This document shows positions 1,038 to 2,490 of a DNA stretch of 10,690 bases, in pieces. Made by a program: the position numbers and the translations under genes. How positions within the stretch are numbered: position 1 is the stretch's first letter; each line of letters starts with the position of its first letter. The stretch comes from a virus (Duplodnaviria; Heunggongvirae; Uroviricota; Caudoviricetes): IMG/VR virus record IMGVR_UViG_2740892230_000009, positions 1 to 10,690 of that record; one strand, written 5' to 3'. The notes beneath the pieces were generated by a model. The model ran no database searches and was not told the DNA's origin. It saw only the letters and a list, made by a program, of their open reading frames with translations.

Positions 1038-1047
1038 NNNNNNNNNN
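1038..1047. other. Run of 10 N (gap or masked bases)
   Basis: nnnnnnnnnn in sequence; coincides with the point where homology to the full ninB copy stops. Confidence 0.95.
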
Positions 1048-1254
1048 CTCCGGCGCAAGTCTCTGTCCATGCCAAAGCACCTGACGTGATACGTCCTGCA
1101 ATAACGCCCACATAAGGCGGTTTTGAGGATTGCTCCGCTTTGGTTCTTTAATGTGGACTTCGTGAGGTGACTTGTCGTCGATCGGAAGTGAGAGTATTGC
1201 GTCTATGGCGTTGTTTCTGATTGCTTCGTTGCGAAGCATGTATATTTGCTTCAT
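1048..1254 (-). pseudogene. Truncated second copy of ninB (N-terminal ~69 codons only)
   Basis: MKQIYMLRNEAIRNNAIDAILSLPIDDKSPHEVHIKEPKRS...WHGQRLAPE parallels the 38..484 protein; nucleotide similarity to 291..484 is high but imperfect; homology ends at the N-run. Confidence 0.5.
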
Positions 1255-1332
1255 TGTCACCTCAACTCACAAAACGCCACGCCATTTTTGCTACAGCGAC
1301 AGGCGCAACACCGATAATCACCCACAGGAGAA

Positions 1333-1342
1333 NNNNNNNNNN
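1333..1342. other. Run of 10 N (gap or masked bases)
   Basis: nnnnnnnnnn in sequence. Confidence 0.95.
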
Positions 1343-1619
1343 AATCGAAATTCTTTTCTTTGATTCCTGCGGCCCTGATGGCTTTCATTACTGCAATTAC
1401 CGTTTTGTCACGCCCATCCTCATAACCCATCGCATAAGCACCTTCTTCACCATCTTTCCAAAGGTCGTCATTCGATTCGGGCCAGTCGATATCCAGTTCA
1501 ATAGCAGAGCGCGATGCCTGCCATATCACCCAGGCAAACTCTTTTAATTCATCGTCTCCCGTGAACTGGCTTTTGTCTTTTGACCACCAGTTTTCAAACT
1601 GTCGGTAGCTATCGTTCAC
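1343..1619 (-). CDS. Hypothetical acidic protein, 3' end truncated by N-run
   Basis: GTG at 1619..1617 preceded by GGGGGAG RBS; open frame of about 92 codons (NDSYRQFENWWSKDKSQ...AIRAAGIKEKNFD) to the N-run at 1342. No family recognised. Confidence 0.4.
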
Positions 1620-1651
1620 TTCCCTCTCCCCCAAATAAAAAGGCCTGCGAT

Positions 1652-1661
1652 NNNNNNNNNN
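1652..1661. other. Run of 10 N (gap or masked bases)
   Basis: nnnnnnnnnn in sequence; directly follows a partial copy of the terminator/RBS module also present at 1746-1790. Confidence 0.95.
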
Positions 1662-1739
1662 TCCGACAACCGCAATGAACGTCGACACCATCCACATAGC
1701 ACCGAGAATCCTCAATGCAGAGAAAATTAACTCAGCCAC
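1662..1739 (-). CDS. 5' fragment of a small ORF with hydrophobic N-terminus, interrupted by N-run
   Basis: GTG at 1739..1737 with GGGGGAGAG RBS 6 nt upstream; encodes (M)AELIFSALRILGAMWMVSTFIAVVG before the N-run. Confidence 0.3.
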
Positions 1740-1754
1740 GATTTACTCTCCCCC

Positions 1755-1786
1755 AAATAAAAAGGCCTGCGATTACCAGCAGGCCT
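1755..1786 (-). terminator. Intrinsic terminator downstream of the 1812..2102 gene
   Basis: On the - strand: AGGCCTGC, 8-nt loop, GCAGGCCT, then TTTTATTT (plus-strand stem arms 1763-1770 and 1779-1786; T-tract is the complement of 1755-1762). Confidence 0.7.
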
Positions 1787-1811
1787 GTCATTAGCTCAGT
1801 AATGTAGATGG

Positions 1812-2102
1812 TCACCTTTTAACTCCATATACCGCCAATACCCGTTTCATCGCGGCACTCTGGCGACACTCCTTAAAAATCAGGTTCGTGCTCATCTTTC
1901 CTTCCCGTTCTTCCCTGGTAGCAAACCGGTAATACACCGTTCGCCAGACCTTACCTTCGATAACCAGAAGACCTGCCCGTGCCATTTTAGCCGCGGCCTG
2001 ATTTATGCTGGTTACTGTTGCGCCTGTTAGCGCGGCAACGTCCGGCGCACAGAAGCTCTTGTGCGTCTCCAGATAATGAATAATTGCTTCTTTGCCCGTC
2101 AT
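1812..2102 (-). CDS. Hypothetical phage protein (96 aa), possibly DNA-binding
   Basis: AAGGAG RBS 7 nt upstream of ATG at 2102; followed by the intrinsic terminator. Family not recognised with confidence. Confidence 0.6.
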   Translation of the reverse strand: MTGKEAIIHYLETHKSFCAPDVAALTGATVTSINQAAAKMARAGLLVIEGKVWRTVYYRFATREEREGKMSTNLIFKECRQSAAMKRVLAVYGVKR

Positions 2103-2202
2103 AGACTTGCTCCTTTCAGTCCGAACTTAGCTTTGATTTCTGCGATCTTCGCCAGAGCCTGTGCACGATTTAGAGGTCTACCGCCCATGACAGGAAGTTG
2201 TT

Positions 2203-2490
2203 TTACTGGTTCAGNNNNNNNNNNTGCTTCATCTCCCTTTCCATTTCATCAATGTCAACGTCATCAGGAAGATGGGAGCAATACGCCGCTATACCATGAT
2301 GATTTATCTCATACCCTTTGAACGTTACCATCTGGTGCGTAATCTCAACTTCGTTCAGGAATCCGTCATCGCATAACTGCCTGGCTATTTTCGATTTGGT
2401 CTGGATTATTGGTAGTGCCTGTTCTTTCAAAGCGCATGATATTTGTGCATCCCATGCCTTTTCGAGAATAGCTAATTGTTTTTTATTCAT
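2203..2490 (-). CDS. Hypothetical phage protein; 3' end uncertain (crosses N-run 2215-2224)
   Basis: ATG at 2490..2488 overlaps the helicase stop codon (ATGA); the frame runs into the N-run. Confidence 0.5.
2215..2224. other. Run of 10 N (gap or masked bases)
   Basis: nnnnnnnnnn in sequence. Confidence 0.95.

What the first reader, a model, noticed from the sequence alone, without database searches (positions are those of the whole stretch)
1038..2224. N-runs coincide with repeat boundaries: ninB fragment and duplicated terminator/RBS module
A second, diverged ninB 5' portion (1048-1254) stops exactly at the N-run 1038-1047. The element CTCTCCCCCAAATAAAAAGGCCTGCGAT occurs twice (1624-1651, abutting the N-run at 1652, and 1748-1775, where it is part of a complete terminator), each time followed on the - strand by an RBS and a GTG start. 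This looks like either a scaffold of short contigs broken at repeats, possibly from a second related prophage, or a real recombination patchwork, which is common in nin regions. Either way the 160-aa ORF crossing two N-runs is probably not one gene.
Basis: seen in the sequence. Interest (0 to 1): 0.5.

Follow-up and report, generated by a model that had tools for sequence, protein, structure and literature searches.

The report
Mis-scaffolded contigs from related prophages
The "duplicated" ninB fragment and terminator piece are not a biological structure: short assembly contigs from two or three related lambda-like prophages were strung together with fixed 10-N spacers, so the finding is an ordinary assembly artefact.

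Summary
The window has five N-runs, each exactly 10 N. A truncated second ninB copy (1048-1254) abuts one run. An exact 28-mer occurs twice, at 1624-1651 and 1746-1773 (not 1748-1775).

The arrangement is not a genomic structure. Segment A (1-1037) and segment C (1343-1651) are directly adjacent, with no gap, in Stx phages. The TAA stop of a 92-aa gene is split TT|A between them. Segment B (1048-1332) between them is 100% identical to a different prophage type. In 201 complete E. coli genomes B continues, after 58 bases that are missing here, into segment D (1662-2214).

The 28-mer is the 3' arm, T-run and RBS of the lambda tR2 terminator. It is the same locus read from two haplotypes that converge there.

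No complete E. coli genome (0 of 5426) has the window's order across 1-2600 or across the N-run at 2215-2224.

The 160-aa ORF 1257-1739 is a chimera. It joins 26 codons of a 68-aa membrane-protein gene, a read-through of the tR2 tail, the whole 92-aa gene, and an out-of-frame tail.

Verdict: a scaffolding artefact of a short-read assembly with several related lambdoid prophages. Interest is low.

The parts
1..1037 (-). Segment A. Contig of haplotype X (Stx-phage type): dam 3' end, full ninB (38-484), lar (441-677), DUF7301 gene (688-903), and the first two bases (1036-1037, 'TT') of the reverse-strand TAA stop of the 92-aa gene.
   Evidence: 98.9% over 1037 nt to AU5Stx1 L002 2501-3537. Pfam NinB, Lar_restr_allev and DUF7301.
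1038..1047 (.). N-run 1 (10 N). It joins A to an unrelated contig, B.
   Evidence: The flanks are not collinear in any reference.
1048..1332 (-). Segment B. Interloper contig of haplotype Z: ninB' codons 1-69 (1048-1254) plus the 3' end and stop of a 68-aa membrane-protein gene (1262-1332).
   Evidence: 100% over 285 nt to E. coli ERP001 L003 3001-3285. NinB Pfam positions 1-69 of 131. Its first base corresponds to window position 278, which opens the divergent block between the two ninB alleles.
1333..1342 (.). N-run 2 (10 N). It separates B from C. B's true continuation, 58 nt (TGCTACC...AAAACT), is missing from the window.
1343..1651 (-). Segment C. Contig of haplotype X: last base of the TAA stop (1343), the 92-aa hypothetical gene (to its GTG at 1619-1617), the RBS, and the 3' arm of tR2.
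   Evidence: 99.7% to L002 3538-3846, which starts at the base immediately after A's end at 3537. 100% identical in L006, L009, L021, L029 and L036.
1624..1651 (-). 28-mer copy 1: tR2 3' stem arm, T-run and RBS only. The 5' arm is absent because the contig ends here. It is the overlap of contig C with D 85-112.
   Evidence: The fold lacks the terminator stem.
1652..1661 (.). N-run 3 (10 N). The true relation of C to D is a 28-nt overlap with D's interior, not a gap.
1662..2214 (-). Segment D. Contig of haplotype Z: codons 1-26 of the 68-aa gene (1739-1662), the complete tR2, ren (1812-2102), and the last ~38 codons of replication gene P (2099-2214).
   Evidence: Contiguous at 100% coverage and 98.9% identity in strain 2013C-3264. 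More than 1100 complete genomes hold at least 80% of it. D 1-153 is 98.7% identical to L003 3344-3496.
1746..1773 (-). 28-mer copy 2, inside the complete tR2 terminator.
1763..1786 (-). tR2 hairpin AGGCCTGCtggtaatcGCAGGCCT followed by TTTTTATTT. It is the same sequence as the lambda ren-ninB intergenic hairpin.
   Evidence: Terminator scan, fold, lambda 40570-40650.
1257..1739 (-). Chimeric 160-aa ORF. In order: 68-aa gene N-terminus (26 aa), XXXX, read-through of the tR2 tail and RBS (RRPFYLGERE), the complete 92-aa protein, XXXX, then an out-of-frame read of the 68-aa gene's 3' end.
   Evidence: Translation compared with the real 68-aa and 92-aa proteins.
2215..2224 (.). N-run 4 (10 N). It joins a P-gene 3' fragment to an 89-aa gene that lacks its stop. 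ORF 2203-2490, which crosses it, is another chimera.
   Evidence: 0 of 5426 complete genomes have both sides at one place. E starts at the divergence point after GATGGTCAT.
2225..6171 (-). Segment E. Contig of a DnaB-type replication module: 89-aa gene, intein-bearing DnaB helicase, O-like initiator, 90-aa gene, and a lambda-type cII 3' end (6122-6171).
   Evidence: 100% identical to L035 and L036, 99.97% to L039, 99.5% to O121 RM8352. In all ten places shown it follows tR2 directly, never ren or P.
6172..6181 (.). N-run 5 (10 N). It lies between two allelic cII 3' ends. E's last 46 nt and F 25-70 map to the same bases of L039.
6182..10690 (.). Segment F. The immunity region (cII, cro, cI, DUF3024 gene, kinase, N side). 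Its first ~59 nt belong to the O/P-type context.
   Evidence: 100% over 4509 nt to IMG/VR L026, where a lambda-type O gene lies immediately to its left.

Best explanation
The region is a scaffold, not a contiguous genomic sequence. A short-read assembly of a host carrying two, probably three, related lambdoid prophages broke into small contigs at the points where the prophage haplotypes branch from or merge into shared sequence. A scaffolder or contig-ordering step then laid alternative branches of the same locus one after another and joined them with a fixed 10-N placeholder.

Shown:
- Haplotype X is A + C + tR2 onward, which is the Stx-phage type.
- Haplotype Z is ninB' - 68-aa gene - tR2 - ren - P, which is B + 58 missing nt + D.
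- The 28-mer 'duplication' is the tR2 3' arm, T-run and RBS at which X and Z converge. It appears once at the end of contig C and once inside contig D.
- The ninB 'fragment' is the Z allele. It starts at the base corresponding to window 278, which opens the divergent block between the X and Z ninB alleles.

Inferred:
- A third, O121-like haplotype Y (DUF7301 gene - 68-aa allele - tR2 - 89-aa gene - intein DnaB) is also present. It would explain why A breaks exactly at 1037, why the 58 nt shared by the two 68-aa alleles were lost, and where segment E belongs.
- The assembler type and k-mer size cannot be determined from the sequence.
For: (1) All five N-runs are exactly 10 N. The true relations of their flanks differ from run to run. 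A and C are adjacent (AU5Stx1 3537/3538), with a stop codon split TT|A. B and D are 58 nt apart. C overlaps D's interior by 28 nt. E's end and F's start are allelic over 46 nt.

(2) B is 100% identical to prophage DNA of strain ERP001. B + D is contiguous over 482 nt in 201 complete genomes. D as a whole is contiguous in more than 1100 genomes.

(3) A + C + D[85..] is contiguous in Stx phages and thousands of E. coli genomes.

(4) No place in any of 5426 complete genomes covers at least 80% of window 1-2600 or of 1900-2600.

(5) One complete genome, 2013C-3264, carries X at 1.010 Mb and Z at 1.355 Mb. So both haplotypes do co-reside in real strains.

(6) Contig ends sit at haplotype divergence points.
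- B starts at the base equivalent to 278, which opens the divergent ninB block.
- C starts at the X/Y split after ...ATATTTGCTT.
- D starts at the first base that differs between the two 68-aa alleles.
- E starts after GATGGTCAT.
- A de Bruijn graph built from proxy haplotypes predicts the splits 'after 1037 -> 1343' and 'first novel base 1662' for every k tested from 25 to 55.

(7) Short-read data are reported to handle the homologous prophage content of STEC chromosomes poorly (PMC10925052).
Against: - The source assembly, its reads and its graph could not be found. Exact-pattern scans of viral and genome contigs did not return the source. Co-residence of the haplotypes in this particular sample is therefore inferred, not shown.
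- Contigs A, D and F run through some branch points without breaking. This needs repeat resolution by the assembler.
- The overlap lengths at right-hand contig ends (28 nt for C, up to 34 nt for B) do not point to a single k.
- Why D ends at 2214 inside P is not explained.
- The proxy-haplotype graph also predicts SNP-induced branch points that are not seen in the window. This is expected because the proxies are not the true haplotypes.
Confidence: 0.9

Rival explanations
1. A real recombination patchwork. The source prophage truly carries a partial ninB' copy, a 68-aa gene split around a 92-aa gene, and a duplicated tR2 arm. The N-runs are then only small unresolved stretches at each joint.
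For: Lambdoid nin regions are highly mosaic. The contig ends lie at genuine mosaic joints, for example the ninB start remnant AAGCAAATAT at 1028-1037 and the variable gene content after tR2 in L033-L042.
Against: - It needs four or more illegitimate joints, each hidden by a sequencing gap of identical length.
- A and C rejoin with zero offset and restore a stop codon.
- B and D rejoin through a conserved 58 nt into an intact 68-aa gene.
- No complete E. coli genome shows the arrangement.
Confidence: 0.03
2. The same scaffolding artefact, but the haplotypes come from different strains or phages in a mixed sample (metagenome, contaminated culture or pooled library), not from co-resident prophages of one genome.
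For: The source is unknown. The segments have their best matches in different strains: B 100% to ERP001, E 100% to L035 and L036, F 100% to L026.
Against: Single complete genomes do carry both X and Z (2013C-3264). Up to 6 matching places per genome were seen. So one poly-lysogenic strain is sufficient. Nothing in the window itself distinguishes the two cases.
Confidence: 0.06
3. The N-runs are deliberate masks that replace 10 real bases in an otherwise contiguous sequence.
For: All runs have the same length.
Against: For none of the five runs are the flanks 10 nt apart in any related sequence. The actual relations are adjacency only after B is removed, 58 nt, a 28-nt overlap, unlinked, and a 46-nt allelic overlap.
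Confidence: 0.01

Closest known systems
Repeat-induced fragmentation and mis-scaffolding of lambdoid prophage regions in short-read assemblies of poly-lysogenic E. coli (STEC and others)
   Same: Contigs end at boundaries between sequence shared by several prophages and haplotype-specific sequence. Alternative branches are serialised. Gap placeholders have a fixed length. Spurious ORFs run across the gaps.
   Different: Nothing substantive. The exact assembler and scaffolder and the number of haplotypes (2 or 3) are unknown.
ren - tR2 - nin region of phage lambda and the Stx phages (933W, VT1-Sakai/Sp15, AU5Stx1, BP-4795)
   Same: A + C + D[85..] is 98-99% identical to these phages. The gene order is the same: P, ren, tR2, 92-aa gene, DUF7301 gene, lar, ninB, dam. 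The hairpin is the same as the lambda ren-ninB intergenic terminator.
   Different: In the window the order is interrupted by contigs B and D[1-84] from another haplotype. The O/P replication module is replaced in the scaffold by a DnaB-type module (E).
ninB' - 68-aa membrane protein - tR2 haplotype of other E. coli prophages (for example ERP001 and 2013C-3264)
   Same: B and D are 98.7-100% identical to it. Together with the 58 missing nt they rebuild an intact 68-aa gene.
   Different: In the window it is cut in two, and contig C of the other haplotype is placed in the cut.

Membership tests
Scaffold gap placeholder (fixed N-run joining separate contigs) | The run length is constant and unrelated to the true distance between the flanks. 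| tested here: met
   There are five runs, all 10 N. The true relations are 0 nt (A|C), 58 nt (B..D), a 28-nt overlap (C/D), unlinked (D/E) and a 46-nt allelic overlap (E/F).
Scaffold gap placeholder (fixed N-run joining separate contigs) | Contig ends coincide with branch points between repeated and haplotype-specific sequence. | tested here: met
   This holds for the starts of B, C, D and E and for the ends of A and C. The proxy de Bruijn graph predicts splits at 1037->1343 and at 1662. The right end of D (2214) is not explained.
Scaffold gap placeholder (fixed N-run joining separate contigs) | Read-level evidence: elevated coverage on collapsed nodes, and no reads spanning the joins. | not testable with these tools
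   The source assembly and reads were not found.
Genuine segmental or tandem duplication in a prophage | The same arrangement is present without gaps in at least one independent contiguous genome. | tested here: not met
   0 of 5426 complete E. coli genomes have a place covering at least 80% of window 1-2600 or of 1900-2600. None of the 37 related loci fetched show it.
NinB (Pfam PF05772) recombination mediator | Full-length match to the family profile. | tested here: met
   38-484 covers profile positions 1-131 of 131, E=9e-49. The second copy, 1048-1254, covers only 1-69 of 131, E=7.8e-22, so it is a truncated contig end and not a gene.
Lambda tR2-type intrinsic terminator | A GC-rich hairpin followed by a U-run, located between ren and the first nin gene, with sequence correspondence to lambda. 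| tested here: met
   1786-1763 has an 8-bp stem plus TTTTTATTT. It matches the lambda hairpin between ren and ninB. The name tR2 comes from my own knowledge of lambda. The copy at 1624-1651 lacks the 5' arm, so it does not meet this feature. Termination activity is not testable here.

The most novel reading that the evidence does not exclude
The order in the window is real. On this reading, homeologous recombination between two co-resident lambdoid prophages produced a nested partial duplication in the nin region: a ninB' fragment, and a 68-aa gene split around a 92-aa gene with a second tR2 arm. The assembler then failed at each joint.
Probability: 0.03. Interest if true: 0.2.

Novelty: not a real feature. 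Interest (0 to 1): 0.04.

Why it matters
It matters only as quality control. Four N-runs within 1.2 kb, plus a fifth at 6172, mark joins between contigs that do not belong next to each other. Gene calls that cross them (ORFs 1006-1260, 1257-1739 and 2203-2490) are artefacts. So is the apparent 'ren/P fragment next to a DnaB-type replication module', and neither should be annotated or used for inferences about prophage mosaicism. The window does suggest that the source carries at least two related lambdoid prophages. That bears on prophage counting, but it is commonplace in E. coli.

Tried and rejected
- I tried to find the source record with an exact pattern spanning N-run 1, in viral contigs and in genome contigs. 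Both returned 0 hits. Either N does not match N in these scans or the source is absent.
- A 44-mer from the kinase gene gave 27 IMG/VR loci, none with N-runs and none identical across the whole window. It gave 0 hits in genome contigs.
- Masking of 10 real bases was rejected from the flank relations.
- I looked for a single k-mer size in the overlap lengths (28 and 34 nt). They are inconsistent, so I dropped this.
- I asked whether reference-guided ordering explains the order A, B, C, D. Sorting by start coordinate on an AU5Stx1-type reference reproduces it, but it cannot place E, so the question is left open.
- An Rfam scan of the window at gathering thresholds found nothing.
- Pfam gave no family for the 92-aa, 68-aa, 89-aa and Ren proteins in my scan. 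A precomputed record lists PF26207 for the 92-aa protein.

Full report
**What is in the window.** It is the early-right region of a lambdoid E. coli prophage, with the rightward operon on the - strand.
- dam 3' end, then ninB at 38-484.
- lar at 441-677.
- A DUF7301 gene at 688-903.
- ren at 1812-2102.
- A DnaB-type replication module at 2225-6100.
- cII at 6202-6498.
- cI at 6943-7650 on the + strand.
These assignments rest.

The window holds five N-runs, each exactly 10 N: 1038-1047, 1333-1342, 1652-1661, 2215-2224 and 6172-6181. They cut it into six segments:
- A: 1-1037
- B: 1048-1332
- C: 1343-1651
- D: 1662-2214
- E: 2225-6171
- F: 6182-10690

**Checking the observation.**
- The diverged ninB piece is real. 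1048-1254 matches 278-484 at 81.6%. It matches Pfam NinB profile positions 1-69 of 131 (E=7.8e-22). It ends at the N-run.
- The 28-mer CTCTCCCCCAAATAAAAAGGCCTGCGAT occurs exactly twice, at 1624-1651 and at 1746-1773.
- The second copy is part of a complete hairpin plus T-run (stem 1786-1763). The first copy has only the 3' arm.
- Each copy is followed on the - strand by GGGGGAGAG and a GTG start, at 1619-1617 and 1739-1737.

**What the pieces are.** I compared each segment separately with complete genomes and phages.
- A matches Stx1 phage AU5Stx1 (L002) at 2501-3537 (98.9%). C matches L002 3538-3846 (99.7%). So A and C are adjacent, with no gap and no overlap.
- The TAA stop of the 92-aa gene (L002 3536-3538) is split across the two contigs. 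'TT' is at window 1036-1037 and 'A' is at 1343.
- B lies between A and C in the window but is 100% identical to another prophage type (E. coli ERP001, L003 3001-3285). It holds the first 69 codons of a different ninB allele and the 3' end of a 68-aa hydrophobic protein gene.
- D starts at L003 3344. B and D are therefore two parts of one haplotype, separated by 58 nt that are absent from the window.
- B + D is contiguous over 482 nt in 201 complete E. coli genomes. D alone is contiguous at 100% coverage in, for example, strain 2013C-3264, and at least 80% of it is held by more than 1100 genomes.
- Joining B, the 58 nt and D rebuilds the intact 68-aa protein VAELIFSALRILGAMWMVSTFIAVVGSFVRLVGEGKDLVGVLFGSILLWVIIGVAPVAVAKMAWRFVS.

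**The 28-mer.** C's last 28 nt equal D 85-112. In AU5Stx1, C runs straight on into the sequence found from 1774. The repeat is therefore the point where the two haplotypes merge. One branch carries the 92-aa gene and the other carries the 68-aa gene. The merge point is written once at the end of contig C and once inside contig D.
- The hairpin AGGCCTGCTGGTAATCGCAGGCCTTTTTATTTGGGGGAGAG is the same as the lambda sequence between ren and ninB (lambda about 40,597-40,640).
- From my own knowledge this is terminator tR2.

**The 160-aa ORF.** Translation of 1257-1739 gives, in order:
- 26 residues of the 68-aa protein;
- XXXX;
- RRPFYLGERE, which is read-through of the tR2 tail and RBS;
- the complete 92-aa protein;
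- XXXX;
- SPVGDYRCCACRCSKNGVAFCELR, which is the 3' end of the 68-aa gene read in the wrong frame.
It exists only because the 92-aa gene's stop codon is split by the inserted contig and because the 10-N runs happen to keep a frame open.

*N-run 4 (2215-2224).*
- A 116-nt 3' fragment of replication gene P abuts an 89-aa gene that lacks its stop.
- E begins at the base where O121-type prophages diverge after tR2 (GATGGTCAT|TGCTTC).
- In all ten independent places shown that encode the identical 797-aa helicase, the 89-aa gene is followed by tR2 and nin genes, sometimes with an HNH gene in between. It is never followed by ren or P.
- No complete genome (0 of 5426) has both sides of this N-run at one place.

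*N-run 5 (6172-6181).*
- E ends with a lambda-type cII 3' end and half of an oop-terminator.
- F begins with a second, allelic cII 3' end.
- E's last 46 nt and F 25-70 map to the same bases of L039.
- In IMG/VR contig L026, which is 100% identical to F, a lambda-type O gene lies immediately to the left of F.

**Is the arrangement seen anywhere?** No place in any of the 5426 complete E. coli genomes covers at least 80% of window 1-2600. Thousands of genomes contain A + C + D[85..], and hundreds contain B + 58 nt + D. One complete genome, 2013C-3264, carries both haplotypes in separate prophages, at 1.010 Mb and 1.355 Mb. A single strain can therefore supply both sets of contigs.

**Why the contigs break where they do.**
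- B's first base corresponds to window 278. That position opens the divergent block between the window's ninB and the ERP001 allele. The 17 nt before it are identical (mismatch list).
- A ends at ...ATATTTGCTT. At that point Stx-type sequence continues as C, and O121-type sequence continues as a 68-aa allele.
- D's first base is the first difference between the ERP001-type and O121-type 68-aa alleles. It follows a 92-nt identical run that contains the missing 58 nt.
- I built a de Bruijn graph from proxy haplotypes. It predicts splits 'after 1037 -> 1343' and 'first novel base 1662' for every k tested from 25 to 55.
- The breaks at 1037 and at 1332/1662 are best explained if a third, O121- or L039-like haplotype is also present. 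E would belong to that haplotype, and its own short allele-specific pieces would fall below typical contig length cut-offs. This part is inference.

**Explanation.** This is a short-read assembly of a host with several related lambdoid prophages. Contigs end at graph branch points. A scaffolding or ordering step then serialised parallel branches and inserted a fixed 10-N placeholder at each join.
- That 10 N is a common minimal gap placeholder is from my own knowledge.
- That short reads handle homologous STEC prophage content poorly is stated in PMC10925052.
- My confidence is about 0.9.

**Rivals.**
- A genuine nested duplication, about 0.03. It would need four or more joints, each hidden by an identical-length gap, and each pair of flanks rejoins perfectly elsewhere.
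- The same artefact from a mixed sample instead of one genome, about 0.06. The window alone cannot separate this from the main reading.
- Deliberate 10-base masking, about 0.01. The flank relations refute it.

**Comparison with what is known, and novelty.** Every piece is 97-100% identical to well-known E. coli prophage and Stx-phage sequence. tR2, ninB, lar, ren and P are textbook lambda nin-region elements. The apparent structure is not a real feature.

**Limits.**
- I could not recover the source record, reads or graph.
- The number of haplotypes (2 or 3) remains unknown.
- The assembler and its k remain unknown.
- The reason D ends at 2214 remains unknown.

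Noticed in passing
window 2487-4880 (- strand): A 797-aa replicative DnaB helicase is interrupted by an intein with a LAGLIDADG homing endonuclease. Pfam finds DnaB N- and C-terminal domains split by Hint/LAGLIDADG hits. The identical protein is indexed in 508 blocks of the public collection. PGAP annotates it as two separate or pseudo CDS in complete O121 genomes.
   Followed up: partly
window 5267-5409: An array of CATGTGCGG-type repeats with 12-nt spacing lies inside the O-like initiator gene (4877-5824). 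It is probably the origin iterons of this replication module.
   Followed up: partly
window 6122-6290: There are two allelic cII 3' ends and oop-terminator regions on either side of N-run 5. E ends with a lambda-type ...RPAATERSEQIQMEF* coding end. F starts with the 3' end of a different allele that is linked to a lambda-type O gene in L026, L002 and L003. This is the same serialised-branch artefact as in the finding.
   Followed up: yes
window 1006-1260 and 2203-2490 (- strand): Two further ORFs run across N-runs and are chimeric. One is the ninB' 5' fragment fused to the A-end sequence. The other is the 89-aa gene without its stop, fused to the P 3' fragment.
   Followed up: yes
window 7711-9621 (+ strand): Downstream of cI (6943-7650) lie a DUF3024 gene, a 153-aa ORF and a 348-aa eukaryotic-type protein kinase (Pkinase hit on the identically placed gene of L039). 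From memory it resembles the stk locus of phage 933W. I did not test this.
   Followed up: no
L033, L034, L036, L038, L041 at about 10739-11350: Relatives carry an extra 203-aa HNH (+AP2) endonuclease gene, absent from the window, inserted between the 89-aa gene and tR2. This is a second mobile element at the same mosaic joint.
   Followed up: no
window 1028-1037 compared with 1242-1254, and L004 5698-5710: A's last 10 nt (ATATTTGCTT) are the reverse complement of the first codons of ninB. O121-type phages keep a full ATGAAGCAAATAT there, downstream of the 68-aa gene. It looks like a relic of an old recombination joint at the ninB start. It is also the place where contig A ends.
   Followed up: partly
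window 1343-1619 (92-aa gene): A precomputed record lists Pfam PF26207 (Phage_phiTE_015) for the identical 92-aa protein in L036. My own Pfam scan returned no family at E<=0.01. This is probably a difference between library versions.
   Followed up: no
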